A stretch of DNA of 64,000 bases from the human T2T-CHM13v2.0 reference genome, Homo sapiens (GCF_009914755.1 NC_060947.1), one strand, 5' to 3'. Counted from the first letter of the stretch, positions 4,169-47,339 are shown. Numbers and translations: made by a program. Notes: generated by a model not told the origin, from the letters alone.

Positions 4169-5058
4169 TGTATCAGTTAGCATTTAATCAGAGAAGCAAA
4201 AACTAGTATCTATCTATATCTCTATATTTATATCAGATATTCTGCAGAGTGGCATTATTGACTTTTGGGCTGGATAATTCTTTGTTGGGGTGTGAGGGTG
4301 GGGGACAGTCCTGTGAATTGTGGGTTTATCTATGGCCTCTACTCACTATATGCCAGTAGCACAACTCTCTACCCTCCACCAAGTTGTAACAACCAAAAAC
4401 GTATGCAGACACTGCCAAATGTTCCCTGAGGGTGAAAATTGCCTCCAGCTGAGAACTACTGGTATCTCTATATTATCTATATTTTTATTTATAGCTATAT
4501 GTATCTCTTCCTCTATCTGAGAGAGAAATTGGTTATACGGAATTGGCCTTATGCAATTGTAGGAGCTGGCTAAGCAGTCTCTGTATGGCTGTTTTCTCAC
4601 ACATGATGCTGAGGCTTCAAGATCACAGGGATGGCAGTCAGAAAAGGAAAAACACAAGCAGGCTGGAACCAACAAGCTTAAGCTGGAACTCCGTGGAGAA
4701 GGACTAAAACCTGTGTTCATTCTTGTTGCCTCTAACCTTGGTAATGAGGGTATCCAGCAGAAGTGGGGCCCTTTGTCACAAAGTGAAACACACACCCCTG
4801 GTCTAGGAGTCTGAGAAGCTGAAAGAATATCAGCGGCAGGTAGAGCAGCCACAGAATCAGATGCTGCTTCACACCAGTAGGGTGAATCTACAGATCAGCA
4901 ACAATATGTGTGAGCCACAAAATGGCCACTGCTTCTCTTTCAGCCTCTAAATGTCTCAAGAATCTTCCCTATGTCTTACCTCAACTCAAAACAAATGAGA
5001 AAAAATTCTGGGAAATGCAATTCAGCCTAGACAAGGTGACATATGAGAAAGCCATTAC
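4169..5058 (-). mobile_element. MLT2 (E/F-like) LTR, the 5' LTR of the ERVL relic
   Basis: MLT2 motifs 'ggaattggccttatgcaattgtaggagctggctaagcagtc'. Directly adjoins the ERVL leader and is interrupted by MER20. Confidence 0.75.
4243..4461 (-). mobile_element. MER20 (hAT-Charlie non-autonomous DNA transposon)
   Basis: Reverse complement matches the MER20 consensus pattern (CAGTGGTTCTCA...GGGACATTTGGCAATGTCTG...CAACAAAGAATTATCC). Confidence 0.85.
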
Positions 5059-5644
5059 AAGATAGTTTGCTCAAAGTAGGATCCAAATTATGTCCATACT
5101 CAAATGAAAATATTATCCAAGCTGGGAGAATGTGTGGTTCCAAAGACTGACTACAAAATAAATTATGAGCTTAAATGGATTAAAATCATATTAAATATGT
5201 AGAAACTTCAAAACTCCACAAATCAAAAGTATGTCATGTACGGATAGAAATTTTTTCTTCACTGATGAGATAGAAAAAGGATTTGTCTGGCACAATGTAT
5301 GACCCTTTGTCTATTCAAAAATGATCACAGCTAATGCAAAACATTTAACAGAAAGATAAATTTAATGTTAACAAGCACATTTGATAATTGTCCCAGGAAA
5401 GATTATAGGTAACTGGATGGAAGTATTTTTCAAGTAATCTAGGATAGTCAACATTTTAAATGCACCACAGAGACATTTATCTCAGCAATTCAGCAAAGCA
5501 GCATCAACTCTTGAGTCAGAATAAAAGCTTTCAGCTTCTCTTTTGAGAAGATTCTGAGCATTTACTTCATTTATAGTAAGGCTCTCTCAAATTTTTCTCT
5601 AAGATTTCCCAGAACCTTTCTGAGGCTTCATGCAATTTATATAA

Positions 5645-6475
5645 GTCACTTAACAAGCACTTGTTGAGCTGTTACCATGTGTCTGGCACTCTTCTAGGTG
5701 CTCTCTATAGACAAAGAATAAAATAGACAATCTATTCTCAAGAAACAAGCCTTCAGTGAATCAATAAACAAATATATATACACACATATAGTTGTGACAA
5801 GTGTTAGGAGGAAAAATATGACTGGGCAAAAGGATGGAGAGTTATACAGAGGAATGCTCATGCCTTTTTATATCAAGTATTCAGGTCTTTATACTTCATA
5901 TCAAGTATTTACTTCAAGATACTTTATATCAAGTATTCAAAGTCCACTAAAGATTATCTGTAAGTAGAGATTTGAATCAAATGACGAAGTAAGTGAGTGA
6001 GGATTTCTAGAGGGGAAATCCTAGCATTCTAGGAGAGGGAATCATAAATGCAAAGGCCCAGAAGATTGGAGCTGTTAGCATGTTAGAGGTCCAGCAAGGA
6101 GTACCTGGAGTAGAAGGAGCCAGGGAAAGAGAGTTGGGAGGTGAAGTCAAGAGAGATCCAGGGGCCAGACTCAGAGACCATGGTTAAGATTTTCTTCTGA
6201 GAGACAAGAGAAGCCACTGGAGGATTTTGAGCAGAGTGGCAAGATGTGAGTTTTGTTTTTAAAGGATCTTTCTGTTTGCTTTCTGGCAAGTTGACATTAA
6301 GGGGACAATGGTGGAAACAGGGAGACCAGTGAGGAGGCTATTGCAATAATTCACTATACTAGGGTGGTAGTGATGAAATAAGGTGGGATAGTCAGATTCT
6401 GGAATTCTGGGTATATTTTAAAATAGAGATTATGGGATTTGCTTATAGATGCTATGTGGGATGTAAGAGAAAGGG
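5645..6475 (-). mobile_element. L2 LINE 3' fragment
   Basis: L2-typical 'aacaagcacttgttgagc...catgtgtctggcactcttctaggtgct', 'caaaggcccagaag' and 'gaagccactggaggattttgagcag'. Confidence 0.75.
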
Positions 6476-6851
6476 GTCAAATAAATGTAATTATGTTTAA
6501 AAACTTCGTATTTAACTTCTCTCTTCCTTTTCTTCAACAGAGTTATCATTTCTCTCTCTCCAAACACTCAGCACCCTACCACTTGCCTCTAGCTGTCTAA
6601 AACTCTTACCATTCCCCCTACCCCTATAATGAGACATCCAACCCAACTCTACAACTTCTATTTGTCTATTTTTGCTATAAAAATCCTCCCTTTCTGCCTG
6701 TTCCTTATTCAATGCTCACCCCATCACTCCATTCAAAGCCTTTATGCTCTGAGACTAACTTTTTTCGCTCACATCTTAAACAGAAAGTATCTGATGTGAG
6801 TAATTCAGATTCGGGTAGAAATGACTAATAATTTAAATTAAAATAGTTTAC

Positions 6852-7180
6852 TTTTCAGGGAGGTATTTTAAAAAGCTTTGAAATCACCCAAAGAAGCCCT
6901 TTTCTTGTAAACACGCCTAAGTTCTATGATCACCTACAAATTACACTTACCCTTTTCTTGTGGTAAACACTCCATGAGTTCTATGATCACCTGCAAATTA
7001 CACTTAGTTGCTGACTGCCCCCCATCCATGCAGGCCTTATGCTGACATTATCGAGGCTCACGCTTTATCGGAAAAGGAAACTACAGGAAATGAATCATGA
7101 ATCATTATTTTTAAAGAGCAACTCCATCACAGCTTGCTTATCATTATTAATAAATGAAGAAAAGAGCTAAACATGTGAAC
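6852..7180 (+). repeat. Left arm of a long inverted duplication (with an internal ~53 bp tandem duplication at ~6897-7007)
   Basis: Reverse complement of 8731-9006, with only a few mismatches across the 6980-7160 core. Confidence 0.95.
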
Positions 7181-7537
7181 TTACATCACAAGAAGAAAGA
7201 TTGAAGTCTCTTAACATACCCGGACAGACTTGTCATAAACTATTGCCTGCTCTGTGGACCCAGCAGACTTTGTCCCAGGCCATTGAATGTTCTGAGCCCA
7301 TTGAATTCCCCTAAGAATCATTTACTACTCCCCCTAAAATCATCCATGTTTCCCTATCTCCCTTTCCACTAAGAAGAAGGGTAAATAAGCATCTCTACCC
7401 AATTGTGTGGTGGGGTAATCTCTCTGTGATTTTTCCCTTCGTGCACATGAATACATTTGTATGCCTTTTCTCTTACTAATCTGCCTTTTCAGTGGGGCTT
7501 CAGAAGGTGAATGGGAAGTTTTCCCTTGGTCCCTACA
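7181..7537 (+). mobile_element. 3' half of a MER34-group ERV1 LTR (inverted relative to its 5' half at 9007-9213)
   Basis: Ends 'ttcccttggtccctaca'. Collinear with the 3' half of the related LTR at 45520-46228. Confidence 0.75.
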
Positions 7538-7699
7538 AGGTCTTAGTTACCTGGCCAAACCTAGCAGCAAAAGTTGGGAAATTTTTAGCCAACTTTAGAG
7601 AAGAAATGCTAAGTGAATATTATTTTGTTATCAAGGTAGCCCTGATGAAGTAGCTGGGAAAGTTCTTTTACTTACTGTTTTTCTTCAGCCCTTATTTAT

Positions 7700-8171
7700 A
7701 GGTACAGCCACTTAAAAAAAACAGATGAGCCCCATGATGGAGTCAGAGCTTCCTGACCCCTGACCAGATACCAGAGGGAGATAAGACCCTGAAACCAACC
7801 CAAACTGGAAGAGATAACCCCAGTGGCCTTTAGATCATTAACATATCATCATAATGCTAAAATTCCCACTACAGAAAGAAAATTTCTGCCATTTTATGTA
7901 CATGGGTTGTACGAAGATGTGTGTTTATGAGTTAAGTCTGCACATGTGTAGTCCCACCCTACACATGCTAACCTTCCTTCTTGCTCCTTGGACCCAGCCC
8001 TTAAAAACTCCATGTCTTCTATTGGTCGGGGAGAAAGGGTCTTTAGAGTGTAAGCTTACTCCTTCTTCATTTCTGGAAAGAGATAAAACCTGCTTGCCTT
8101 TTGTTCCAATTGGGTGTTCTTTCTCTGTGACCAATACAAAGTAGGGAAAAAAACTCAATTTGCCAGTGACA
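7700..8171 (+). mobile_element. Old LTR, probably ERVL class (subfamily not assigned)
   Basis: TATA-like 'ttaaaaac', poly(A)-signal-like 'gataaaacc' and a 3' end 'ccagtgaca'. Confidence 0.5.
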
Positions 8172-8730
8172 ATACGAGCAACTAGCAATTTGAGCAAGTA
8201 TAGCCAGCTTATTTTCCCTGTACCATTCCATTTGAGATAATGTGCGCTTCTAAGGATATATGCTTTTATTGTCATGATGGAACTGAAGTGGATGAAAGTG
8301 CCTCTAGCTGCTCTGTATCTAGTTATTCAGTGGATCCCCAAATCCGGTTATAAAACCTATAAGATTTTATTTGTTCATATTTCCCAAATGAAAAAAAGAT
8401 TTAGTTTTATTTTCTTTTTGTCTCCTCAAACAAACAAACAAAAGCTAAGCTAGATTTGACACAAAAGTATCTAGGTTCTTCTCCCCATCGCACCCCCAAC
8501 CCCCAAGAAACTTACGCTGAAAAGAGAGAATAATAGAGATTAAATGTCAGCTGTGTCAATCTATAATTCAAAGTGATAAAATGAAAAGAGACCCCCAATA
8601 TCACCCTGGCTCAGGTGATATAGCAGGGTAAGTGGCAAGCCCTTATCTAGGCATCTATTCCAAGACAGGCTACTGTGAGGTGATTTCAAAATTGCTGGCT
8701 CTAAACAGAGACAAAGATCTTAGGGGCTTT

Positions 8731-9006
8731 GTTCACATGTTTTACCTCTTTCTTCATTTATTAATAATGATAAGCAAGCTGTGATGGAGTTGCTCTTTAA
8801 AAATAATGATTCATGATTCATTTCCTGTAGTTTCCTTTTCTGATAAAGCGTGAGCCTCGATAATGTCAGCATAAGGCCTGCGTGGATGGGGGGCAGTCGG
8901 CAACTAAGTGTAATTTGCAGGTGATCATCACTACTTAGAAGTGTTTACCACAAGAAAAGGGCTCATTTGGGTGATTTCAAAGCTTTTTAAAATACCCCCC
9001 TGGAAG
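8731..9006 (-). repeat. Right arm of the long inverted duplication
   Basis: Reverse complement of 6852-7180, without the internal tandem copy. Confidence 0.95.
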
Positions 9007-12000
9007 AGACCAGAGGTAATTGTTTTCTTCTTTGATGGGTCTAGACTTTGGGCAGATAAGAGAATTTCAGAGAAGAACTTCATCCAGTGCTTTGAGAGAG
9101 ACAAAGAATTGAGAGAAAAGAGTGGGGGAGGTCAGAGAAATCTTGACGCTTCTTATTCAGTTCAGCATGTCGAAGTGTCACATTTTGGGAGTATTAGTTT
9201 TTGCGACCCAGCATTCCCCTGTCTGAAACTTACCAAGAAGTTTCACACCTAGAGTTTGTGGCTATGGAGAAAAAATTGAGCCAGTAGCTGAATGGCAAAG
9301 GATCCCACCAAACCAGTCTCTCATTTTTGGGACTAGGCCAGTTCAACTAAACAGCTGTGCCTCATTTTAGAAGACGGTGTTGCAGATGGCTCTCAAAGCT
9401 AGGCCACTATATTATGTAGGAAAACAGATCTTTAATAAGAGGCATCTCTATGGAAATAGAAGGGAAAGAAAGCCAATGTCTGAAGCAGTCTGCAAGCTAG
9501 TCCTTCTAAAGTTTGGAGGGCAGCCAGTTGAGAAGACCAGTGGCAACCTGACAGATTTTCCTAGATTGTAATTTGCGTGTAAAGTGTGTCCAAATATGAG
9601 CTATTGCAATGATTTTTCTCCACAGCCAATTTGACTAGCCTCAGCTTGCAGGGCTTCAGGAAAAAGGCATTTTTAATTTCAGTAAGTCCAAGTCAGAAAA
9701 AAAATGAAAGGAAAATTTGGAAAGATTACTTTGAAGACTTGTCACCAGGAAACAATTCAAGATTCAGCCCAAATTGCAAGCAGATAATAAAAACTCAAAA
9801 ACAATGAACAAGGCAAGAATCTAAGAACAGATGTACTATGGTTTTCTTCTGAAACATAATTTTCTCCCTCCAGTACTCCATTTTTCTAAAGATAAAACAC
9901 GGTAGGACGAATCTATTTGCAAAATAAGCTTTAGTCTTATTATACTTGGTTTGATTATTTGTATAAAATACAGCAAGAATAGTGATTGGCTATACAGGCT
10001 CTTTTAAAGTTAGCTTTGGTGGGACTTTTTCGTAAGAAATCTCAGATTTGACTTTTAAAATCCAGTCAAGGACAAGAAACCAAGGCAAGGATTTGCCATC
10101 AGGCTGTACCTATAATACCTGTACAAATTGGGAAAATCCTTCTATTCCTAAGGTCCCCAGAATATCTTGAGTTTCCTGGGCCTGTGAGAGAGTAACATTC
10201 TTTACTTTCCACAAGGTTAGGAACCTTATAAAATAACTGCATAGACAAGGTAACAGGCCAGTCTTTATCCAAGTCTATTGGCTTAGTAAAGTCAATCCCA
10301 ATCATTTCAAGCAGTTTGATCACAGATGAAAACATGCTATTCTAGTCAAAGCCTTGGTAAAATAATCAGTATCTCCAATTGTGTCCTGTTACCAAAGAAA
10401 ACAGATTCTTGTTAAACTTATGCAAATAACTATTTTGCCATAAAATAAGAATTCTCGTGAATAGTTTCTGAATTCTGGAGAAATCAGGGTAGAGAGAAAG
10501 GTATGGGTTTACATTTTTCTTACCAAAGTATACTTAACCCAATTGCTGTAAGCTATAAATAACTTAAAAAAAAATTTTCTTAACTCTGGAAAATAAAACA
10601 TACAAATAATAAGTAATGTTTCAAACAAAAAGATTATTAAAAAATCTTTTCAGTCCTCTATCGGTTCGGTTCCATGTAATTAATTTTTATTTAGCTTGAT
10701 GTTGGCTTAGTAATCTTCATAAACCCATCAGTTTTCTTTTTTTAATTAGAGTTTTGGAAGGTTTTACCTAGTTCAATAATATAATCTCCAGAATTATCAG
10801 AAACCTATATTCAAGAGTACTTGTTAGGGTTCTTTCCATGAATTTCACTGAAGACACAACACTTCAGGATTTGCAAAATGCTTTTAGAAAAAAAAAAAAC
10901 AGAAACAACTTACTTCTTATACTAAAACATATCAGATTTTTAGAAATCTCATACAATTTTGAAACACATTTCAATAATATATCTATACAAATATAACCAA
11001 AGAATACTAAAGTTTTGTGAACTTGAAAAGTATTTGGGCTAGTTTCTTGGCACTCATTTATTTATAATTCAATTTGGTACAATAAGGACAATATACAAAC
11101 AGACATCTATACACACGTATGCATAAAAATACAGACACAAATAAAGACCTTAAAGCTTTGATTTTAAAATTTTAGTTATGAAACAGGTAAAACTCACTAG
11201 TTTAAAAAGACAGTTTAATTAAATTGTGCCTCTGTAAAAGGAACAAGTTAGTTTGTTTGTCCCACACTGCCAAAGCCCTTACTAAGTTTTAGAGAAAACA
11301 GGATAGCAAATTTCCATTTCAAAGCACAGAGACAGAATTTATGTTTTTCTTAAGAATGAGCTTGGGTTTGTTAGTTAGAGAAGGTTAAAAATGCCGAGGT
11401 GACACAAAATTATAGAAATTTACCACAGTATTTTCTAAGGAGATTGATTGTATTTAGATAGGTAGTTTCTAATTTAGTCTCTGTTTTCTAACTGGACCAC
11501 TGAGCTTAGGGTGGAGCTCATCAATGAATAATAGGGCTGATGAAGCATTTGCAGTTTTCAGGGCCTAATATTTAAATATGAGAAAAGCAGGTGCAGCTGG
11601 AAGGCAGGGCATCTAGATCTCCAGAAATCAATAATTCTGTTTTTACACTGAATCTCAGCTCCCACAAAATCGGGCAATATCACAGGACAAGGCTGCACAA
11701 GACTTCCACAATGCATCTTGCTACAAGGATGCTCCAACACCAATCAGCCCTCTCTGTGATAAGTCCACCCCCATAGGAGTCTTATCCCTTGGTGCTGAGT
11801 GTTTCCACAGCCTCCAAGTATTCAAACTGTGCCTTTCTTAAATAAACTTGCAAAGAAACAAATAGACTCCTACAGTAATAACCACTCATTGAAACCACTG
11901 TTAGCCATCTCAAACACTGTAGCCCTCATCAGTGACACAGAAGCCATACCATATACAAAGGTCAAGTACTTTCTCACAGTACAAAATATCCCCTGGTATC

Positions 12001-12574
12001 CCACAATGCCAAACAGACCAGGTAATAGCATGCAAAAGAGGGCAGAGCTGTAGACCTAAGAGGAAACTGCCATGACTCCTGGGGTTCCATTTGGAAAACA
12101 GGAGAACTCAAAAAAGGAGTCTGTGCCACCTTTTTTCTGTGTTCCTCAAGAGGTCTCAGAGTCACTAGAAGTCCCTTCTAGATCTTTTCATGTGGTATTG
12201 AAGGTGGCAAAAAAGAAGGAGGAATAGAAGAAAATGGGAGAACAAGTCTTAGAACAGTCAATTTCAGGAGATTTTAAGCTTCCCAGAAGGCCAATGAACT
12301 TTTACATTTTTCTCAGCAAAAATTAGACCAAGAAAGAAAGCAAACAAAGGGACTAAACATATAAATAAAAGAGGGTTTTGATCAACTGAAAACAATTCTC
12401 AGAAACAGGATCCAAAAGAGAAAAAGCAGAAAGATGTTTTTAAAAAATTTTATCTTGAATATCAGTTTTTAATTAAGCAGACTTCTGACTATAGAGGTCT
12501 TGAAAAAAATATTTCCAAATCTCTTATTATCACATTTTAGCTGGGACAAACAGCCAATATTCCTGGCTTTTGAA

Positions 12575-12598
12575 CTGTTTTTATTTTCTTTCTTTCCT

Positions 12599-12654
<56 letters not shown>

Positions 12655-12802
12655 TTCTTTCTTTCTTTTTCTTTCTTTCTTTCTTTCTCTTTCTTTTTTC
12701 TCTTTAATCCCCCTTCCCTTCCCTTCCCTTCCCTCCTTCCCCTCCCTCCTCTCCCCTCCCCTCCCCTCCCTTCCCCTCCCTTCCCCTTCCCTTCCCTCTT
12801 TT
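12575..12802 (+). repeat. Compound polypyrimidine microsatellite (TTTC)n + (CCCTT/CCCCT)n
   Basis: Read directly from the sequence. Confidence 0.95.
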
Positions 12803-13211
12803 AAACCAAGGATACCTTTGCAAATGACTCACCAAAACCAATAAGCTTTAACCAAGGTTATGACTTAACCAAGAATGTACAAGGTACATCCAAGGAGGTG
12901 CAAAGCAATCCTCACAAGTCCAGAACCATCCCAAAGACAGCTCAAAAAAACCAGTTTTGCTAACCACAAATGGGGTACAACTCATATTTTTGTCTGGCCA
13001 TGTTTTCTGGGGTCTCCACTTCTTAACTGACCCTAAAGCCTTATGTGCCTTCTACAAATGGAGGAAAACAGAAAATCCAAAGCCGTCTATGAAAGGGAAA
13101 AAGATCAATAACAAATGGGCACTCCCAAAAGTCAAAAATCACACAAATATCAAAACAAGTTTTCAATAAATGTTTCTTTTCCTCAATTAGAGGACATAGA
13201 TCTGCAAGAAT

Positions 13212-13284
13212 TGGTTCTCTGACTGAGAATCAAACCTAGGTCATGGTGGTGAACTTGTCGAATTCTAACCACTAGACTACAGGA
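13212..13284 (-). pseudogene. Degenerate tRNA-Glu(TTC) copy with encoded 3' CCA, inside the ERV internal region
   Basis: Minus strand TCCTGTAGTCTAGTGGTTAGAATTCGACAAGTTCACCACCATGACCTAGGTTTGATTCTCAGTCAGAGAACCA aligns end to end with tRNA-Glu (TCCCTGGTGGTCTAGTGG...GGTTCGATTCCCGGTCAGGGAA+CCA). Many of the changes are CpG decay. Confidence 0.8.
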
Positions 13285-13400
13285 TGGAGTGCACCTTATT
13301 GTAAATCCGTCAGGGAGTCCAAAGTAGGTAGTTTTAGTGTACAAAGGATTTTAACTTTGTTTTAGGTCAGATTTTTTTCTCTTTAATTTTCTCAAGAGAA

Positions 13401-13704
<304 letters not shown>

Positions 13705-14377
13705 ATTGTCAAGAGAAGTTCTAAGGCTAGCCATGACACTAGTCATGTGTCTTTTTAAAATTTGATCCTCTCATAGATACAAGGTAATTGTTTAGAATGA
13801 GAGATCTCTAAAATCTTTTTTTTTTTAAATTAATCGTCTTTATAAGTTGAAGGATCCATCTTTTGCTCACTGACAATTAGAATTTCCAATCATGTACTTA
13901 CTTATTCCAGTAGCAATTGAATCCAAAAAGCCTTTTCATGGAAAGCCTAAGAGGTGATTTTCCAAGTTTAGAATAAGTTTTTAGCACATAAGCAAGCGGT
14001 GTTCCTGGAGAGGGCATAGAAGAGATATTCTTAATAATTCCAAAAAAACTTATTCCCAGGAAGAGGCTAAGCCAGTGAAAGACTTGTTGCCATAGATACT
14101 TAAGGATGGTGTTTGTATGTCCTGTTCCACCAGTATCCCACAAATTTGTGGGGGCCTGCCAGTTCCAGACCCATTAATTCATGACACCAGGCTCTCCTGA
14201 GATTGGACTTTCCCAGGACAAACCAGGCAACCACAGTTGAAACAACAAAAACTCCTATGAATGGAGCTTCTTATTTAAGACAAACTCCCCTAAGAGATTG
14301 GTACATTCAGAACAAAACATGTGCTGCTTAAAATCTTATGTGCCTCAGCTTTCCAGCCATTTTCATATGTGACTTGA

Positions 14378-20781: not shown

Positions 20782-20966
20782 GAACTGGCTTGCACCTTTT
20801 GTTCTACCTTGATTTTATCTTTGAGGTTATGTGCTCTACTGGGATCTACAGTAGAACACATTCTACAGGGGTGAGAATGGTCAGAGAAGCATGGAGTTGG
20901 GCAGGGAGAAGAGGCTTCTTGAACTCTCGTTCAGGCATAAAATTGGAAAGCTGGCATTATTACAAG

Positions 20967-21582
20967 TTGTTGGAGCTCAGAAACCAATACCCCAAAATAT
21001 GACATTTTGACAGACTGAACTGAAAAAGACTCAAGGTCCCTCTGACCTTCCCCCCTACCCCATCTTCTCTCCTAAAGCATAAGATAAAGTTGTTCTCTGA
21101 AGTTCTTTTATCTGCCAAAAGTCCAGACCCACCAAGAAGAACATTGTTTTTCTTTCCCCTCCCTGTTATCTTATTATCCTTTCCCTACTATCTATTATCT
21201 ATTCCAGAAATGAAGGCCAAGAATATAATCACACCTGCACCAACCCTTTTATAAAATAATGTCTGTCTCTCAGACTTATCCAAACTCCAAAGAAAACTAT
21301 GAACCAGTTAATCTCTGTTCCCCATTCATTCTCCCTAGTAATCCTTTATCGCTCCTCAACAGAATTCCTCTTCTTTCTCCTCCAATAACCTGTTTTGCCA
21401 GGATCTAATGCCCCATTTTTTCTGTAACCTTAAAATGGTATATAGGCTTCTGAGCCAACTTTGGGGAGTGGGGGCAGGATTGAGTCTTCATTCTGAAGGC
21501 TCCCACATATATGAGTTAAACAAATTTGTATGCCTTTTCTCTTGTTAATCTGCCTCATACCAGTGATTTTCAGCAAACCTAC
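20967..21582 (+). mobile_element. ERV1 solo LTR (MER39/LTR29-like)
   Basis: Begins TGTTGGAGCTCAGAAACCAATACCCCAAAATATG. MER4-group U5 motif 'tttgtatgccttttctcttgttaatctgcc'. Confidence 0.7.
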
Positions 21583-21589
21583 AAAGTGC

Positions 21590-21861
21590 AATGTGGTCCT
21601 AATTCCTCACCCCTCCCTGTATCCATGCCCTTTGACTTGTATCTTTGAAATACTCTCCCACTATGTGAAGGATGTTATACCTTACCTCTGGCTCTAAAGT
21701 TGGCCATGTGATTTGCTCTGGTCATTGGGATTTTAGCAAGTGTGAAACAGGCAGGGTCATAGGAAAGTGCTTGATATTTTTGTTAGATCTCTTGTTCCTA
21801 GGCATTTGCCATGAGAATATAGCCTACTGGAAATGTGATACGTAAATTAAAGCTAAGTAGC
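21590..21861 (+). mobile_element. MaLR LTR (MLT1F/G/H-like), 5' part; continues at 38819-39071
   Basis: 'ccctccctgtatccatgccctttg...ggccatgtgatttgctctggtca'. The matching 3' part 'cttattgtttcaagccattga...agataactgacgca' lies 17 kb downstream. Confidence 0.65.
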
Positions 21862-22192: not shown

Positions 22193-24440
22193 AGTCTACC
22201 TAAAAGGAAGAAGCTTAGGTGAAATTAATGTAAGCCGATAGTTTATTTGGTCCAAGCTTTAGGATTGCAGCCCAGGAGCATAGATTCAAGTTGCCCTGAA
22301 TAAATACTCCAATTAGCAGCAGTTACAAGTGCATTTTTAAGGGAAAAAAGTAGGTGACTCAACAATTATTGAGTTGTTTACCAAGAATTTACATTAAAAT
22401 AACATAAATTATTAATTGGCTATACATTGTTTCTTTGTATCACAAGTTCCAGGCACATGAAGATAATGAGTGAGGCAGCTAATGGGGACCAAATTACTTC
22501 AAACAATTTCCCCAAAGTGAGATAGCAAGGGATGGGGCATGATTTAGGTCCCATACACTTATATCTCTGGGCCTGCATACCTCATATAGCTCAGACTACT
22601 CTGACCTATTTTTCTTTTTCGTTTTCCCCCTGTTGATCAAAAATTTTCCCATGAAGCATTGATGATTGATCGCTGAATAGGTTAGAATGATAGACATTCT
22701 TCATCCCTCAGCATCGGGAAAGCTCATTCCTGGAAAGGCTCAGTCAAGTCACTGATTTATATAATGGTCATCACTTTTTGAATCATCTCTAGCCTTTGGA
22801 ATTTCATGCTTTCAGTTTTCTTGTAAGAAGGAAAACAATGAGAGATACATAGTAAAACCTATTCCGTTGGGGATTCAGTCCACATTTTAGGAATATAATT
22901 TAAATGTTTTTAAAATGGTCAGAGCTGGAATCTAACAACAGGTTTTCTATAATTTTTTTCAGAACGTAATTTTTGTCTCCCAAGTTCCCCATTTCTATGG
23001 AAGATAAATCTTAGTAATCTTAGTAGGGCAAATTTACTAGTAAAATAAGTTTTAATATTATACTTGGCCTATTTGCATTAAATGAAACAAGAATAGTGAT
23101 TGGCCACATAGGTTCTTTTAAGTTAGCTTTGCTGGAACTTTCATAAGAAATTTCAAATTAGATCTTTAAAAACCTTGAGGTTAGAAGCCAAGTCAAGGAT
23201 TCACCATTAGATTGTGTCTGCAATTAGGTGAATTATTATCTTCTCAAGGTCTCCATATAACCTTGAGTTTCCCAGGCCTGTCAGAAAGTGACATTTTTTT
23301 ACTTACTGCAAGTTCAGAAACCTTGAAAACTATCCATGTAGACAAGGTACCAGGCCAGTCTTTCTAAGCAGTTTTATTGGCTTTATAAAGTCAACCTAAA
23401 TTCCTCACAGCAGTCTGGATATGTCTGAAAATATGCCATTCCACTCAAAGCTTTGATAAAATAACTAGTTTCTCCAATAGTGTTCTGTTACAAAAGAAAA
23501 CAGATTCATACTGAACTTATGCAAGTAAGTAGATTCACATAAAATAAGAATGCTGATGAATAGTTTAAAAATTTTAGAGAAATCAGAGAAAAAGGCAAAT
23601 GTTTCCATTTTGTTCACAAAGGTATATTTTTTCCAATTACTGCAAGCTATAAGTAGCTCAAAAGAAAGAAAAATTTCTGAGTCTGGAAAACAAAACATAA
23701 AAAGAATCAGCAATGTTTCAAACAAAAAGTCATAAAAATATTTTTAGCCCCCTATCAGTTCAGTCTCATGTAATTAATTCTTCTGTTTGATGTTGGGTTA
23801 CAAAATCTTTATGAACTCATTGGTTTATTAGAATTCTGAAAGTTTTTGCTTAGTCCAATTATATGATCTCCAAAGTTATCAGAAACCTGTATTCAAGGGT
23901 ACTTGTCATAGTCCTTTTCTATGATTTTTCTTGAAGAAAAAGTAAGTTTTGGAATGTAGCCAATTGTAAACAATGTTTTGAGAAAGAATTAAAGCAATAA
24001 TTGCCTTTGGATGGCAAAATTTAGAGTAGCCATGGTTAAAGACACAATTGACAAGAAAACTTGGTTATTTGTGTGGCATACAACAATTTAACATAATAAC
24101 CATAATTATATCTGACATACATTAAGACATACCAGAATTTTAGGAATCTTGTGTAATTTTATAACACATATTAATAACCTAACCAGACTCAAAGAATATT
24201 CAAACACCATTATTTTATTTGACAATGCTTCCCATATAATTTTAATATACTAAATAAACCTAATATGTCTTTCTTGGTATTCCAGTGGTTTCTTCCAGAA
24301 GAAAACTGAATTTTAGAATTTGAAATTGAATTTTTGGAAGAATGTCAAATATTAAAGATTTAAAACACTTGATCAAAATAGAATTCCAGGTCACTGTAAA
24401 ATAATAGTCATTAATTTAGCCAAAGTGAAAATTCAAAATT

Positions 24441-27197: not shown

Positions 27198-28957
27198 TAG
27201 ACTAACAACCTTTTGATTACCTGTCCCATTACCCTAAACAACTGTTAGGTAGGGAACCCTAAATTTGCATTTCTAAAGACATGACTCTTAGATGAAAATT
27301 TATATCCCAAAGGCACTGAACTTAGCTCTAACACCATTATTTGCTGATACAAAAAGGGCAAGTCAAGACAAGATTACCAGAAAATGTATCTAAACAAAGG
27401 TACAAATTGTTATGTAAACTTTAAGCCAATGTCTTTCCCATTATAAAAGTTTCTAGTGGCTTGAGTATAAGAAGATACCCTTACAAGTGGAGAGTTCCTT
27501 TATAGATTTTCATTTCTTTTATAGATGTTCAAAATAGCCAGTGAAATGCCAGCAAATCATATTTTGGAGACCAAAGTACTTAGATGATCTTTTAAACTTA
27601 GCTTTTTTCTTAATTCCATTAATGATTTAAGGGTGAAGCCCTTCAATGAATAGGGCAAAGAAAGGATTTGCAGTTTTCAGGACCTGATATTGAAATATGA
27701 GAAGAGACACAGCTGGAAGGCAGAGCATCTGGATATTTTAAAGTCAAGAGTCTCACTTTTACATTAAATCTGTGTTCCCAAAACAGAGAAACACTATGAG
27801 ACTGGGCCATACAAGCTTCTGCATTGGATCTCACTACAAAGACATTTCCCTAAGTGTTTAAACTGTGCTTTTCTTATCTAAATGCACAACAAACCAAGCA
27901 GCCCTCTGTGGTAATAACCATTAATTATAAACAACTTCTATTAGTGACCTCCAAAACTGTGGCTCTCATCAGTGACTCATCAGCCGTAACACACGTAAAA
28001 ATCAAGTTCTGTCTCAATACAAAGTATTCTCTGGTACCCTCAAAAGCCAAAGAGATCAAGTAATGCAATACAAAGGATTGAAGAGTTTTAGACCTGAGAA
28101 GAGCCTGTCTGTGACTCTTCAGACTCCACAGAAAGGCAGAAGTTCCCCAAAATGGGTGAATGGTGCCTTTTTCTATGTTCCTTAAGGGGTCTGAGTCATT
28201 AGACATCTTCTCTAGATTTCTTAATGTGGTATCAAAAATGGGAAAAGGAAAGAGGAACAGAAGAGGAAGGAAATAGAACAGCAAGTCTTAAAGGAGTCAA
28301 TTTGGGGAGATTTTAAGCTTTCTAAAAGGCTAAATGAGTTTTACATTTTTCTAAGGAAATATCATTCCAACCAGATAGAAAGCAAAGAGAGGGGTTTAAG
28401 TTGACTGGAAAAAAATTTTTAATAACAGGATCCAAAAGAAGAAGAAGAAAAAAGCAGAAAGACCTTTCCCCCCAAAAAATTATGGCTTAAATATGAGCTT
28501 TTAATTAAGCTGACTTCTGTCCCTACAAAAGAATCTTTTAATATCTCTTCTTAGGAGATTTCAGCCAGGAAAAACATAAGGTAGGTCTCCCATTAAGTTT
28601 GTCTGGTTATCCTTTTTTGCATGCAAATGAATTATTTTAGATATTTCAAAGGATTCCTATTTTGGCTACTGCTGCTCATGACTGTACTGGGTTGGGTGGG
28701 TCCACTTTCCTAGACATTTACAAGAGGATGCCCAATAAATATTATTGAAGCACCCTCATGGTCTGGGATGACACCCAGGGTTCTTGGTCTCATGGCCAAG
28801 GAAATCAAGAATGCAGAGACACCAAGGGTTAGGTTTAGAGCAGAAATTTAATAGAAGAAAGAGAGAGAACAGCTCTCTGCTTCAGGGAGGAATTCCAGAA
28901 AAAGGGTTGCCATTTTTACAGTTGAATGCAAAGCCTTTTATATATAGATAGATAGAT

Positions 28958-29229
28958 AGATGTACCCACATTATGTGAACTAAAAGGCATTTGAGTTAGT
29001 TTCTATTTTTCTGATTAAATATTTAATTTAAGTGTCTGTGGGGGAGGTTATTTGAAACCAATCTCAGTCCTACAAAGTTGTTTGAACTGCACCCATCAGA
29101 ACTCATATATGAGTTTTTTGTTTTTTCTGAGCTGCAGCCAGAGATTGCTGATTGGATTACAGAAACAATGTCATATAATATTATATATTATATATATTAT
29201 ATATTAAATAAACATGTTTAGGTACATGA
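28958..29229 (+). other. Chain of templated insertions copied from 26325-26401, 17038-17115, 30284-30335 and (inverted) 31601-31619
   Basis: Manual alignment gives 74/77, 76/78, 51/52 and 19/19 identities. Confidence 0.93.
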
Positions 29230-29390
29230 ATATACATGTTTAGGTACATGAATATACATGTATATATACACATATATACATATACATGTTTAGGTACATG
29301 AATATACATGTATATACATGAGATATATATATATATATAAAATATATATATATATTATATATATATATATATAATATATATATATATATA

Positions 29391-29679
29391 TTTGAGATGG
29401 AGTCTCACTCTGTTGCCCAGGCTGGAGTGTAGTGGCATGATCTTTGGTCACTGAAACCTCTGTCTCTGGGTTCAAGCTATTCTCCTGCCTCAGCCTCCCA
29501 AGTAACTGGGATTACAGGTGTGCACCACCATGCCCAGCTAATTTTTTTTTTGTATTATTAGTAGAGATGGGGTTTCACCATGTTGGCCAGACTGGTCCTG
29601 TACTCCTGACCTCAAGTGATCCACCCGCCTCAGCCTCCCAAAGTGCTGGGATTATAGGCATGAGCCACCTCACCTGGCC
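29391..29679 (-). mobile_element. Alu (AluS-like) in the MER61 3' LTR; tail converted to (AT)n-rich repeats (29172-29390)
   Basis: TSD ATGCAAAG(C/G)CTTTTATA at 28926-28942 and 29685-29701. The uninterrupted site is visible in the 5' LTR at ~36816-36832. Confidence 0.93.
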
Positions 29680-32600
29680 AATGCATGCAAAGGCTTTTAT
29701 AGGAAACTGATGAAGGCTGGGTGTGTCATTTTAATCAGGTATGAATTTCTGGTAGCTCTACTCCATCTTCCTAATGCGCATGTGGGCCCTTAGCTTGCAT
29801 TACTCCATATTGCTCTGTTCCCCTTACTGCGCGTGTGTCAGGGGACAGAATTTTCCATTGTGAGCATGTCTGGGCAAGACACCTAGGTAGCCTTACTTAT
29901 CTGTGTGGCTGTGGGCATGTCTTAGGTAAGCCCCCCTGTGCAAGTTCCTCTATCTATCCCTGCAGGCTGTTCTTTTGTTTGAAAGGATTCAACCGAGGAC
30001 TGACCAGATTTTTTCCTCTCTCCTCTCTCATTTCCCCCCTCAGGAGTGGAGACCCTGCTTTTAGGGGGAATGGGACAATGATTCTTTTAGCTACTTCCTG
30101 TTGGACAGGGATGCTGTGTAGGAGAACAGCATTAGGATTCCTCCTAGGGGCAATCTAAGGGTCCTTGGAAGGAAGGCACGCCCATGTATGGTTTCATTTG
30201 CATCACCATTTGGAGCAGGGCAGGATTTGCAGGCTTATTGCCCAAAACTAGAGTATTGATCCAGATTTCTACATGACCAATCCTTTTTTGTTTTTTCTGA
30301 GCTGCAGCCAGAGATTGCTGATTGGTTTACAGAAATAAGCAGGTTAGTTTAAAACATAGGCAAGAACTTGAAAACGACTATTGAGATTAGAATTTAATAC
30401 CCAGCATGTAATAAATTTTGAAAAGTATTTTTTCTCTCTCCAGTCCTCATTTTTGTTAAAAACAAATCATGATTGGACTGAGTTGTTTGCAAAATAAACT
30501 ATAGTCTTATACTTGGCCTGATTATTTTCATAAAGTACAGAAAGAATAATTATTTTTACATAGGTTTTTAAAACTGGCTTTGATAGAACTCTGTTCCACA
30601 AGGACTCTCAGACAGGACTTTTTAAAGTGAAGCCCAGCCATGGGTTTGGAACCTCAAATACCTGAGTTGGGTGAATTCCTCTCTTCGTGAAGCCCCAAGA
30701 ACATGGGGTTCCTGGGCCTGTTAGAAATTGATATTCTTGACACATCACAGATCAGGAACCCTGTACTGGGACTGTGTAGGCAAGTTATGAGGCCAGTTTT
30801 CCCAAGGGGCTTTTATTGGCTCTGCAAGTTAAGCTTGATTCTTTAAAGGAAAACACACCCTTCCAGTCAAAGTCTTGCTAAAATAACCAGTTTCTCCAAT
30901 TGTGTCCTTTTGCAAAAGAAAATTGATTTTTATTGCACTGATGAAAACAACTATATTGCCATAAATTAAGAATACTTACAACTAGCTTCCAAATTACAGA
31001 GGAGCCAGGCAGAGAGAAACAAATATGCTCCAAATTTTGTTCACAAGAGTATACCTTACTCAATTGTTAAAAGCTGTAGATAGCTTAAAAGAAAAGTTTT
31101 CTTGATTCTGAAGAACAAAACAAAGATTAGCAATGTTTTAAACAAAGAGTGAAAAAGAACTACTTCAGACTTCTATTAGTTTAGTCCATGCAGTTAACTC
31201 CGGTTTGATATTCATGAACATTTCAGGCTTCATAATTCCTGTATGTTTTCCTTTATTCACCTGTCACAATTTCCAAAGTTATCAGAAACCTGCGTTTTAG
31301 AGCACCTGTACAAGTCCTATAATAATTGTAAATCATTCTTTGAAAAGGATGATTTATAATTAAGACAACAATTATCTGTGAATGATGAAATGTCCAGGGT
31401 AGTTACAGTTAAAAACACAATTGAAAAAGAAATTTGGTTATTTCTGTGGTTTACAATAGCTTAACATAATAACTTTAATTATGATTGATAGCATATACTC
31501 AAACATTAGAATTGTATACATCCCATACAATTTTGGAACATTTATTAATATTATTCGCTAAAATATAAACTGAAGAAGATTAAACATCATTCTGGCAATC
31601 TCATGTACCTAAACATGTTAAATAATCCTGTTTACCTCTCTTCTGGATGCTTCAGGGGCCCTCTGTGGCATCCACAAGCTAGGGGTTAGGAAAGACAATT
31701 GTGAAGCTAAAGTTTGATTTTTGGAAGCCTGCTAAGTGTTAAAGGCTTAAAACACTTGATATTATGAAATACAATACCAGATTATCATAAGTTATTTATT
31801 TTGCCAAAATTATGACTAAAAATTTGAAAACGTGGCAAAAACCTTTGTTCATTAAGAGGGAAGACTTAGCTTTCCAGTTTGTTTCCTGTTTTCTCATTCT
31901 TCTCCTTGGCAGTTTATCCACAAGGCAAATGAAAATTGTTCATTATCCTTCACTATTATATGAAGATTTTGTACAAGGAAGAAAAAGCCAAGTTTTGCCC
32001 TTACATTGGTTTCAAAACAATTCTTTATTCCTAGGCAAGATTTACATTTCCATGCCTTTTTATAATCTTTTACCACAAAAACATTTTACTGTTCCTACAC
32101 ACCTTACATGTATATCTATTTTCAGTAGTCTCATTTACATGTTATAATGGTAACTCTTAGTAATTTTTAACTTTAATGTAAAACATGGTAAGTTGTTTTA
32201 ATTATGTACTAGGTCCAGATAAAGTCTGACATTTTTCAGCATAGTTACGGGTATGGTTAATTTTTTTATGTCTCCAGGCCTTATCAAGTTGTAAAGCAGG
32301 CAGTTTATGACCTTAAAACATTTAGCAAACCTAGTATGTGACTTACATGATTTAGACCACCTATTTACATTTTGATGACATTTGCATTTGACCAATTATC
32401 TTTGAAACATTTTTATTTCTTAAAGATTAAAGTCATGTGAATTAAAAGACATTAAAAGTTTTATCTTTTCTTTAAAAAAATTTGATTTAAGTGCTTAATT
32501 TTCCGTAAGCCAATCAGTTAGAGCTCTTTTTATAGACATCACACACAACACATATATAACTACACATACAAACAGAAGAAAACTTGGTTGTCATAAGATT

Positions 32601-42246: not shown

Positions 42247-42843
42247 TAGTAGTAAACATGTATTTTTCATATGACCCAGTAGTCTCACTATAGGTTTTTA
42301 CCTTAGAGAAATAAACATTTATAGTTACGTAAAATCCTGTTCATGAATCTCTATAGCAGTTTGAATCATAATTGCCCTAAACGAGAAATAACTCAAATAT
42401 GCATCCACAGCTTAGTAGATAAACAAACTGGTATATTCATATAATGGAATACTACTCAGCTATAAAATGTAACAAACTATTGATACATGCCATTACATGT
42501 ATAAATCTCAAAGTCACCATCTATGTGAAAAAAAGCCTCAAAAGATTGTATACAGTATAATTTCAATTATATGGCATTTGAAAAAGTCAAAATTGTAGGA
42601 ACAGAGAATAGATCAGTGATTTCCAGTGATTAAGGGTGAAGGGAGTTTGTGACTACAAAGGGTCAGTATGAGGGAGTATTTTGGGGATGATGAAGCAGTT
42701 CTGTATCATTATTCTGGTGGTAGTTTTATATGAATCTACACATGTGTTAAAACTCATAGAATTGTATACACACATACACAACAACAAAATACTACTATAC
42801 ACCCATCAAGATGGTTAAAATGCAAAAAATTGACAATATCAAA

Positions 42844-43106
42844 TATTGGCAAGGATATGTAGTAATTGCATTTCTCATATATTTCTGGTGGGGTACATAT
42901 TTGTAAAATTATTGTAAAACTATTTAGTATCATTTACTAGATTTGAACATATGCATGTCCTATTACCCAGCACTTTTATTGGCAAGGATGTGTAGTAATT
43001 TCATTTCTCATATATTTCTGGTGGGGCACATATTTGTAAAATTATTGTAAAACTATTTAGCATCATTTATTATATTTGAACATATGTATGTCTTATTACC
43101 CAGCAC
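42844..43106 (+). repeat. Tandem duplication, 2 x ~130 bp (period 133)
   Basis: 42844-42973 vs 42977-43106, 8 mismatches. Confidence 0.95.
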
Positions 43107-45519: not shown

Positions 45520-46228
45520 TAGTGGGTGGATGGGCCAAGGGAAAGCTTCCTGTCTGTCCTCTGAATTTTTGCTGAATATGGACTGACAATAGACCTATTA
45601 ATAGCATAAAAAGTCATACAAAATTTATTTTAACATGTATAGCATGGGGGAATCACAGAAGAATGTTTAACCAATAACCCAATGAGGTCCAGATGCTTAC
45701 ATACCCTTCTTCATAGAAGAATGGGAGATAGAGCAGTAGAAGTGAATTATTTTCTGGGAAAATGAATGAGCCCAAGGAACAGTGGCCTGGGACAAAGTTC
45801 TGAGCTCTGCAGGAGGTAATGGGAAGGTGCAGGGAGGGGTGTGGAACTTTACTTTGAATGAAGGTTGTCTTATGTAGATAAAGCCTCCCAGGTAATCTCT
45901 CAGTATTTCCCTCAGAAGAATAGATTGAAAGTCTGTCTAGGCATGGTGACAACTTCCATTCTCTTCTCCTCTTTAATGGTTAATCTTTCATGATTATTTA
46001 ATGAGACTCCTAGGAAGGGGGAAAGACAATTGCATTTCTTTTGGAAAGAAATTTTCCTAGTCAGATAAGGAGATTCCAGCAAGAGTACCTAGTGGTGCCT
46101 TGGAAAAATAAGAAGGTCAGAGAGACATGGAGGCAGGGGGAGATCAGAGAGAAAACTTGAGGTTTCTCTTCTTTAGTTCAGCATGTCAAAGCACCATATT
46201 TTGGATTATTGTCTTCTGAGCCCCAACA
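45520..46228 (-). mobile_element. ERV1 solo LTR (MER34/MER39 group)
   Basis: Minus-strand start TGTTGGGGCTCAGAAGACAATAATCCAAAATATGGTGCTTTGACATGCTGAAC. Confidence 0.75.
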
Positions 46229-47339
46229 TGAGTATGTATTCTTCATGGAAAGAGCCCTCCAGGAATTACTTGCATGAGTGTTTAAGTTGGGCCAATTGGC
46301 ATGAATAATTTAGAAAGAGGGACTAAGGAACTGTATTGAAATTTTCTTCCATTATTGACCTGGACTGGTGTTGAGAAAAAAAAAAAACTTATAAGTAGAA
46401 GCTAAAGGGGATATTTTCTTGAGCATCACCCATTTTATTTCCATTCCAATGTCCCAAAGCATTTGGTTTAGTAATTTCAAGACCTCCATAACTTTGGGGT
46501 AGTATTTTAAGCCTTTCAGTGTGCATTGAACATAGTAAAAGTCCAGTGAATCTGAATTTATTTCATGGAAGAAAAAAATAAGAAGGATGAAAGGAAGAAA
46601 GTGAGGGACAAACATTTTTCATAAGAGTCCTAGAACAAGCATAGATGAAATGGTGGCAAAGCACTATTTGAAATAAAAATACTTAGAAGTTACTAGGACT
46701 GAAGAAAGACATGGGTCTTATCAAAAAGCATTCAAAGTACCAAACAAGATTAATAAAAATAATTTTTCTGGAAACATGTTAGTGAAATGACAGAAATCAA
46801 GGATAAAGATGATAACCTTAAGAGAGTAAAGGCAGGACAATTTTTCTGTATAAATGGAATGTACTTTTGCCTGGATGATATTTTAAATCTATGCTTTTAA
46901 TGTCTCTTCTGCTTTAAGCACATAAGAGTGATGGAAATATATTAAAAAGAGAACATAAGAAGCTACAACTGGGCTTATAGGCAAGATAAGCATTGCAAAA
47001 AATAATAATAAGATGTGAAATAGAAACCAGAATTGGGAACAGGGCTGAAGTCACAAGCTGGCTGGACATTAAGGCTGAAAACAGAGATGACCAGGTTTAA
47101 AATCTTCATGTAAGTAGGCAGCCAGAATCAAGGCCCATCCCTGAGATTATCCCTTCTGAAAAGAGGTTGAAAATTGCCTCTGCCAGTTTCTAACTAGGGC
47201 ATCAGCTCATGAAACACAGAAGACCCAGGACATTATAGGACATAGAGTTGCCAGATATCCCTGTAACTGAATTAGCCACACTCAGAATAGCACCATGATA
47301 CAAGTACTGCCAATTGCCAAATTTGACCTAGATGGGGAA

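What the first reader, a model, noticed from the sequence alone, without database searches (positions are those of the whole stretch)
6852..9213. Inversion with a ~300 bp inverted duplication that cut an LTR into opposite-facing halves
Seen: 6852-7180 and 8731-9006 are near-identical inverted arms 1.55 kb apart. The 3' half of an ERV1 LTR starts immediately after the left arm on + (7181-7537). The 5' half of the same LTR type starts immediately after the right arm on - (9007-9213) and is still attached to its internal region. Against the related intact LTR at 45520-46228 the halves are complementary, with roughly 40 bp missing. Inference: ancestral A-B-C became A-B'-A'-C, an inversion with duplication of one flank (staggered break or replication template switch), with new junctions at 7180/7181 and 9006/9007. 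The near-identical arms could support recurrent flipping of the 1.55 kb spacer or stem-loop formation.
Basis: partly seen in the sequence, partly recalled or inferred. Interest (0 to 1): 0.7.

Follow-up and report, generated by a model that had tools for sequence, protein, structure and literature searches.

The report
Old inversion splitting a viral repeat
On the human X chromosome a 1.55-kb stretch lies flipped between two mirror-image copies of a 276-base piece and splits the end-repeat of a decayed virus into two halves that face opposite ways; it is likely an ordinary DNA repair or copying accident, millions of years old, with no known effect.

Summary
The structure is real. The arms 6853-7180 and 9005-8731 are 95.6% identical and occur nowhere else in the genome search. 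The LTR pieces 7181-7537 (+) and 9007-9213 (-) come from one family: in 32 of 34 distinct genomic copies they lie in line, a median 26 bp apart (not about 40). A 5-nt microhomology marks junction 7180/7181, so about 16 bp are absent. The result is an inversion with one duplicated flank, a known class (dupINV/INVdup). One is a short inverted duplication into the LTR followed by a recombination flip between the new arms (favoured, 0.5). The other is a single long template switch (0.38). A 177-bp central tract without non-CpG differences hints at gene conversion between the arms. The arms are about 4.4% diverged, against about 16% for a related LTR pair, so the event is old but later than the insertion. 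No polymorphism here was found in the two inversion lists I could check. Primate orthologues were not available. New member of a known kind; low interest.

The parts
6853..7180 (+). Left arm (A), unique sequence, likely still attached to its original left flank
6897..7006 (+). 53-bp tandem duplication inside the left arm (two units); the right arm has one unit
6984..7159 (+). Central 177-bp tract: 3 differences between the arms, all CpG transitions; longest perfect run 92 bp (7071-7162)
7176..7180 (+). 5-nt microhomology at the junction: ends both arms and also precedes the 3' piece in intact LTR copies (exact in 15 of 32, at most one mismatch in 26 of 32)
7181..7537 (+). 3' piece of the broken ERV1-like LTR, ending in CA
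7181..8730 (.). Inverted segment (1550 bp) between the arms
   Evidence: orientation of the LTR pieces against 32 of 34 collinear copies
7622..8178 (.). Second, unrelated interspersed repeat (LTR-like) carried wholly inside the inverted segment
   Evidence: 44 other matches at 69-88%
8731..9006 (-). Right arm (A'), 276 bp; likely still attached to its original neighbour at 8730/8731
9002..9006 (-). Junction overlap: the first 5 nt of the right arm match the LTR continuation (exact in 20 of 32 copies) but only 3 of 5 match the left-arm donor
9007..9213 (-). 5' piece of the same LTR, starting with TG directly after a polypurine tract: the 3' LTR of its provirus
9214..14360 (-). Decayed internal region, interrupted by an Alu and a simple repeat; ends without a 5' LTR (matched to 14256, end approximate)
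8515..9430 (.). RefSeq enhancer annotation spanning the right arm and junction 9006/9007
   Evidence: hub annotation only; not tested

Best explanation
A 1.55-kb segment is inverted and flanked by two opposite-facing copies of a 276-bp unique piece, with an old ERV1-like LTR split at the two new junctions; it most likely arose in two steps, a short local inverted duplication into the LTR and a later recombination flip between the two copies. Step 1 (inferred): a break or stalled fork in the LTR was repaired by copying piece A from about 1.9 kb away on the opposite strand. The copy rejoined the LTR through 5 nt of microhomology, and about 16 bp of LTR were lost. Step 2 (inferred): recombination between A and its copy inverted everything between them, which turned the 3' LTR piece round. 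Shown: geometry, junction positions, microhomology, one LTR family, arms single-copy by search. Inferred: order of events, exchange between the arms, an age of roughly 10-35 million years, fixation in humans. No function is indicated.
For: The arm of 276 bp matches the commonest resolved class among 733 human inversion-type variants: inverted duplications, 277 events, median 284 bp, mostly with 1-15 bp microhomology. An inversion with one duplicated flank is not among the classes named in that text (PMC12350158, passages). The 5-nt microhomology has a chance of about 0.005 for a random join under equal base frequencies. Non-CpG differences are absent from a 177-bp centre and crowd the arm ends. 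The permutation P is 8e-5 with 11 events and 0.013 with 6 merged events, as conversion between the arms would give. Validated inversions exist with inverted repeats down to 140 bp (PMC13629690, passages). Local templated copying happened elsewhere in this window (28958-29165).
Against: It needs two events where one template switch suffices. The clustering loses significance when differences within 10 nt are merged (P 0.08-0.18), and error-prone synthesis near junctions or short template switches could also cause it (a 5-bp hairpin explains one cluster in the right arm). The 24 homology-driven inversions of PMC6748972 have repeats of 654 bp or more. No flipped allele was found in either list. 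I could not see Fig. 3b of PMC12350158, and 21 of its events are unclassified complex ones. Nothing in the human sequence alone separates this route from the one-step route.
Confidence: 0.5

Rival explanations
1. One replication event with two template switches (four-point type 1-3-4-2, FoSTeS/MMBIR). The strand left the template inside the LTR, copied about 1.85 kb backwards on the opposite strand (A, spacer, 3' LTR piece), then rejoined at the start of A through the 5-nt microhomology.
For: One event explains both junctions, the 16-bp loss and the microhomology. Type 1-3-4-2 is defined as giving an inverted repeat with an inverted spacer and made up 23% of filtered human-chimp events (PMC5453318, passages). 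dupINV/INVdup are recognised subclasses (PMC5338099, passage). 18 of 45 human inversions carry small indels put down to one FoSTeS/MMBIR event (PMC6748972).
Against: The examples seen in PMC5453318 are short, tens of bases. The class is not named among 733 long-read-resolved events. The route alone does not explain the clean central tract.
Confidence: 0.38
2. Two breaks, one staggered by about 276 bp around A and one in the LTR, rejoined in inverted order by end joining with fill-in.
For: It gives the same geometry. The staggered-break model for inversions with inverted duplications is described in Drosophila (PMC1885836, search listing only; details recalled).
Against: It needs a 276-nt single-stranded overhang and two breaks within 2 kb. 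I found no sign specific to it.
Confidence: 0.08
3. The arms are two independent insertions of a rare mobile element, or the ends of one, and the LTR pieces are from separate insertions.
For: None found.
Against: The arms match only each other in the genome search. The sequence shows no poly(A) tail at either arm. The pieces are complementary, non-overlapping parts of one family (32 of 34 loci).
Confidence: 0.02

Closest known systems
CNV-flanked inversion, dupINV/INVdup (Collins et al. 2017, PMC5338099)
   Same: An inverted segment with one flank duplicated and two new junctions.
   Different: Here it is an old event in the reference, read from a broken repeat and not from a variant call; it is small, with a 16-bp loss at one side.
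Four-point template switch type 1-3-4-2 (Loytynoja and Goldman 2017, PMC5453318)
   Same: [quoted passage not shown]
   Different: The back-copied tract would be about 1.85 kb; a single event is not shown.
Short dispersed inverted duplications (Schloissnig et al. 2025, PMC12350158)
   Same: Size (276 against a median 284 bp) and short microhomology.
   Different: In that class the sequence between donor and copy keeps its orientation; here it is inverted.
Inverted-repeat-mediated recurrent inversions (PMC6748972; PMC13629690)
   Same: Arms over 90% identical flank a spacer of 1-2 kb, like HsInv0072 on chrX.
   Different: The arms are short and unique, and were made by the rearrangement itself. 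No second orientation was found in the lists checked.

Membership tests
dupINV/INVdup complex inversion | A segment inverted relative to the ancestral state | tested here: met
   LTR pieces collinear in 32 of 34 family copies, opposite here; ancestral state inferred from paralogues, not orthologues
dupINV/INVdup complex inversion | One flank present twice, in inverted orientation | tested here: met
dupINV/INVdup complex inversion | An allele or species without the event | not testable with these tools
   no other primate genome is held
Four-point template switch 1-3-4-2 | Inverted repeat with inverted spacer | tested here: met
Four-point template switch 1-3-4-2 | Made in a single event | not testable with these tools
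   the two-step route gives identical junctions
Short dispersed inverted duplication | A few hundred bp with 1-15 bp microhomology | tested here: met
   276 bp; 5 nt exact at 7176-7180, imperfect at 9002-9006
Short dispersed inverted duplication | Intervening DNA keeps its orientation | tested here: not met
   the spacer is inverted today; it can only have been a first step
Recurrent polymorphic IR-mediated inversion | Inverted repeats over 90% identical at both breakpoints | tested here: met
   95.6%
Recurrent polymorphic IR-mediated inversion | Both orientations present in humans | tested here: inconclusive
   absent from the T2T list of 41 samples and, by estimated hg38 place, from 612 candidates; the list for 1,019 genomes was not held
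ERV1 (class I) LTR | TG...CA ends, polypurine tract before the 3' LTR | tested here: met
ERV1 (class I) LTR | 4-bp target-site duplication (typical length recalled) | tested here: inconclusive
   exact 4 bp in 3 of 16 copies with both ends resolved, none of 5 or 6 bp; not testable for this insertion, whose other LTR is lost
ERV1 (class I) LTR | Named Dfam/Repbase family (LTR29/MER39/MER34-like, recalled resemblance only) | not testable with these tools
   no repeat library held; PMC5753468 lists these names but gives no sequence test

The most novel reading that the evidence does not exclude
A 276-bp inverted duplication seeded its own inversion: the arms have gone on exchanging sequence by gene conversion, and the 1.55-kb spacer has toggled during primate evolution, so some primates carry both arms with the spacer unflipped. 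It would be a dated example of a common small variant class creating a recombination substrate far shorter than the usual inversion repeats, beneath an annotated enhancer. With the chain of three local templated pieces at 28958-29165, the region may be a hotspot of local template copying.
Probability: 0.25. Interest if true: 0.5.

Novelty: new member of a known kind. Interest (0 to 1): 0.27.

Why it matters
As it stands it is a clean fossil of a complex rearrangement: the broken LTR acts as an internal ruler that gives the junctions, the lost bases and the microhomology without an outgroup. It also shows that an 'inversion with a duplicated flank' cannot be assigned to one event from junctions alone. 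It would matter more if primates showed both orientations, since that would bear on how short an inverted repeat can be and still flip its spacer, or if the annotated enhancer depended on the new junction. No gene is disrupted: the nearest annotated exon ends at 5077.

Tried and rejected
Target-site test linking the 3' piece to this very insertion: impossible, because the internal region ends near 14360 without a 5' LTR. Continuity across the presumed old junctions (6852 and 8730/8731) through a spanning repeat: no homologue found. The LTR at 45520-46228 as yardstick: too distant and gappy, replaced by 34 closer copies. Inversion lists: the supplement of PMC12350158 holds no inversion table and was cut; the macaque inversion supplement of PMC7605249 could not be searched; PMC9563103 is not held. 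Those unseen files may list this locus. A paper search for LOC105373188 gave 0 papers. A motif scan of 7000-9500 found no octamer or AP-1 site, and the short SOX, GATA and TEAD matches had no control, so nothing is claimed about the enhancer. Cruciform extrusion was rejected by reasoning: the spacer is 1.55 kb, and PMC5398296 (abstract, sections 6 and 12) treats spacers over 1 kb as unlikely to form hairpins. The computed arm duplex is strong (-394 kcal/mol as RNA), but no transcript covering both arms is annotated. Mobile-element and twin-priming origins were rejected (rival 3). Earlier scan findings were not open.

Full report
Observation. The window was read from 6000 to 10500 and scanned for repeats. 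The pair at 6853-7180 and 9005-8731 is the most nearly identical inverted pair in the 64 kb; no other inverted hit reaches 90% in the self-comparison at 88% or more. The gapped alignment gives 261 matches, 12 mismatches and 5 gaps. One gap is a 53-bp tandem duplication in the left arm, so the unit copied is 276 bp. The spacer is 1550 bp. A DNA search of the whole genome with the left arm returned two places, the arms themselves. Searches with the left flank plus arm and with the right arm plus spacer end found only this locus. The tool skips very common words, so single-copy status is well supported, not proven.

The LTR. Searches with 7181-7540 (+) and 9007-9215 (-) returned 41 and 40 matches, from 40 scored candidates each of 618 and 243, and several elements appeared in both lists. 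I kept the 19 best non-self loci of each search (38; 34 distinct after 4 duplicates were dropped) and aligned each piece on its own. Both pieces lay in line with a gap under 100 bp in 32 of 34 loci; the other two had gaps of 386 and 842 bp; the median gap was 26 bp. Median identity was 0.81 for both pieces. They are therefore complementary, non-overlapping parts of one family of about 590 bp. The 5' piece starts with TG after a polypurine tract and the 3' piece ends in CA. Internal sequence matching a natural relative runs from 9214 to 14256 and gives way to unrelated DNA near 14360. The 5' LTR is gone, so the flanks of this insertion cannot be compared. That both pieces come from the same insertion is inferred from their complementarity and closeness. 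Exact 4-bp target-site duplications were seen in 3 of 16 copies with both ends resolved, none of 5 or 6 bp, which weakly fits ERV1. The family name could not be tested; a likeness to the LTR29/MER39/MER34 group is recalled only.

Junctions. The last 5 nt of both arms (7176-7180) also precede the 3' piece in intact copies: exactly in 15 of 32, within one mismatch in 26 of 32. The chance of 5 nt or more at a random join is about 0.005 with equal base frequencies. At the other junction the first 5 nt of the right arm match the LTR continuation (exact in 20 of 32, within one mismatch in 30 of 32) but only 3 of 5 match the left arm, so this overlap is imperfect. Counting these, about 16 bp of LTR are absent. 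Each arm meets LTR sequence at one end, so the joins at 6852 and 8730/8731 are taken as the old ones. No spanning repeat was found to test this.

Age. The arms differ at 12 of 273 columns (4.4%, 95% interval 2.3-7.6%). The two LTRs of a related natural provirus differ at 92 of 563 (16.3%). The rearrangement is thus far younger than the insertion. With recalled divergences (human-chimpanzee about 1%, human-macaque about 6%) it falls at roughly 10-35 million years. The differences are uneven. A 177-column centre has three, all CpG transitions; the other 96 columns have nine substitutions, and all five indels lie outside the centre. A permutation test on the longest clean run gave P 8e-5 with 11 events, 0.013 with 6 and 0.077 with 4, depending on how neighbouring differences are merged; leaving one event out gave 0.0003, 0.032 and 0.18. 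The Fisher tests use a centre chosen after the fact and are not relied on. Gene conversion between the arms would give this pattern; so would error-prone synthesis near junctions or short template switches (one right-arm cluster makes a 5-bp hairpin). All three copies of the tandem unit carry private changes, which leans to an older event with a converted centre. This is a hint, not a proof.

Mechanism. Three routes give the same two junctions. (1) Two steps: A is copied in inverted orientation into a break in the LTR, then recombination between A and its copy flips the spacer. (2) One replication event with two switches, type 1-3-4-2 of PMC5453318 (passages). (3) A staggered break with end joining. 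In PMC12350158 (passages), 277 of 733 resolved events are inverted duplications, median 284 bp, mostly with 1-15 bp microhomology. Another 257 are balanced inversions, median 1,565 bp, 45 of them flanked by inverted repeats. No class with one duplicated flank is named, though 21 events are unclassified complex ones and I could not see the figure. Step 1 of route 1 is therefore a very common event of this size, and the possible conversion tract suggests the arms have recombined. Against it stand parsimony and the short arms: homology-driven inversions in PMC6748972 have repeats of 654 bp or more (passages), although PMC13629690 includes validated cases down to 140 bp (passages). I give 0.5, 0.38 and 0.08; these are judgements, not computed values.

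Polymorphism. Table S1 of PMC10150506 (CHM13 v1.1/v2.0 coordinates, 41 samples, 373 regions) goes on chrX from 26.37 Mb to 45.10 Mb with nothing between. I saw the first 30 of 85 chrX places, and searching all three files for 42352-42355 gave none. That table holds chrX inversions of 1,338 and 1,781 bp, so this size is within reach. For PMC13629690 (612 candidates, hg38) I estimated an offset of about +590 kb by taking row 338 as HsInv0072 (inferred), which puts the locus near 42.943 Mb. No chrX entry began with 4290-4297. The list for 1,019 genomes, the macaque supplement and PMC9563103 could not be read and may bear on this. The locus looks fixed, on limited evidence.

Function. None is shown. 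The arms could pair if transcribed together (RNA duplex -394 kcal/mol, longest perfect run 92 bp). The only annotated transcript nearby ends at 5077, and an AATAAA lies at 7149 in the left arm. The RefSeq enhancer 8515-9430 covers the right arm and one junction, but my motif scan had no control and supports nothing. A paper search for LOC105373188 gave no paper; I did not find this locus described in the searches, which cover open-licence papers only.

Comparison and verdict. The end state is a CNV-flanked inversion (dupINV/INVdup, PMC5338099, passage) and has the geometry of a 1-3-4-2 switch. It is not a plain inverted duplication, since the spacer is inverted, and it is not shown to be a recurrent polymorphic inversion. 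It is a new, well-resolved member of a known kind, interest 0.27. The boldest reading left open is that a 276-bp duplication seeded its own inversion and has toggled in primates (probability 0.25, interest 0.5). A side result, a chain of three short local copies inside an Alu insertion site 20 kb away (6 differences in 206 bp), shows that local template copying of similar age occurred again in this window; a link to the inversion is untested.

Noticed in passing
window 28958-29165: Three short direct copies abut: 28958-29033 from 26325 (3 differences in 76), 29034-29111 from 17038 (2 in 78), 29114-29165 from 30284 (1 in 52). For each piece the best genome-wide match is the local one. The joins have a 1-nt overlap and 2 untemplated nt. 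The chain lies next to a TA-rich tract at the tail of an Alu (29391-29682, minus), inside a 17-bp target-site-like repeat (28926-28942 and 29685-29701, one mismatch). It looks like a chain of templated insertions, of similar age to the arms; it may deserve its own look.
   Followed up: partly
window 42844-43106: 133-bp tandem duplication, 8 differences in 130 bp.
   Followed up: no
window ~14360: The provirus internal region stops abruptly and its 5' part and 5' LTR are missing; unrelated AT-rich DNA follows.
   Followed up: partly
window 8921-8931: A cluster of changes in the right arm makes a perfect 5-bp hairpin with a 1-nt loop that the left arm lacks, as a short template switch would.
   Followed up: partly
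window 7149-7154 and its copy in the right arm: An AATAAA hexamer in the arm is duplicated by the event, so one copy lies on each strand; no evidence of use.
   Followed up: no
window 20950-21596, 22871-24264, 27630-28576, 30388-31581, 45520-46242: Several further related LTR and internal ERV fragments; the region is dense in old ERV remains.
   Followed up: no
window 29173-29392: Long TA-rich, self-complementary tract in place of a plain Alu tail; such tracts are recalled as fragile.
   Followed up: no
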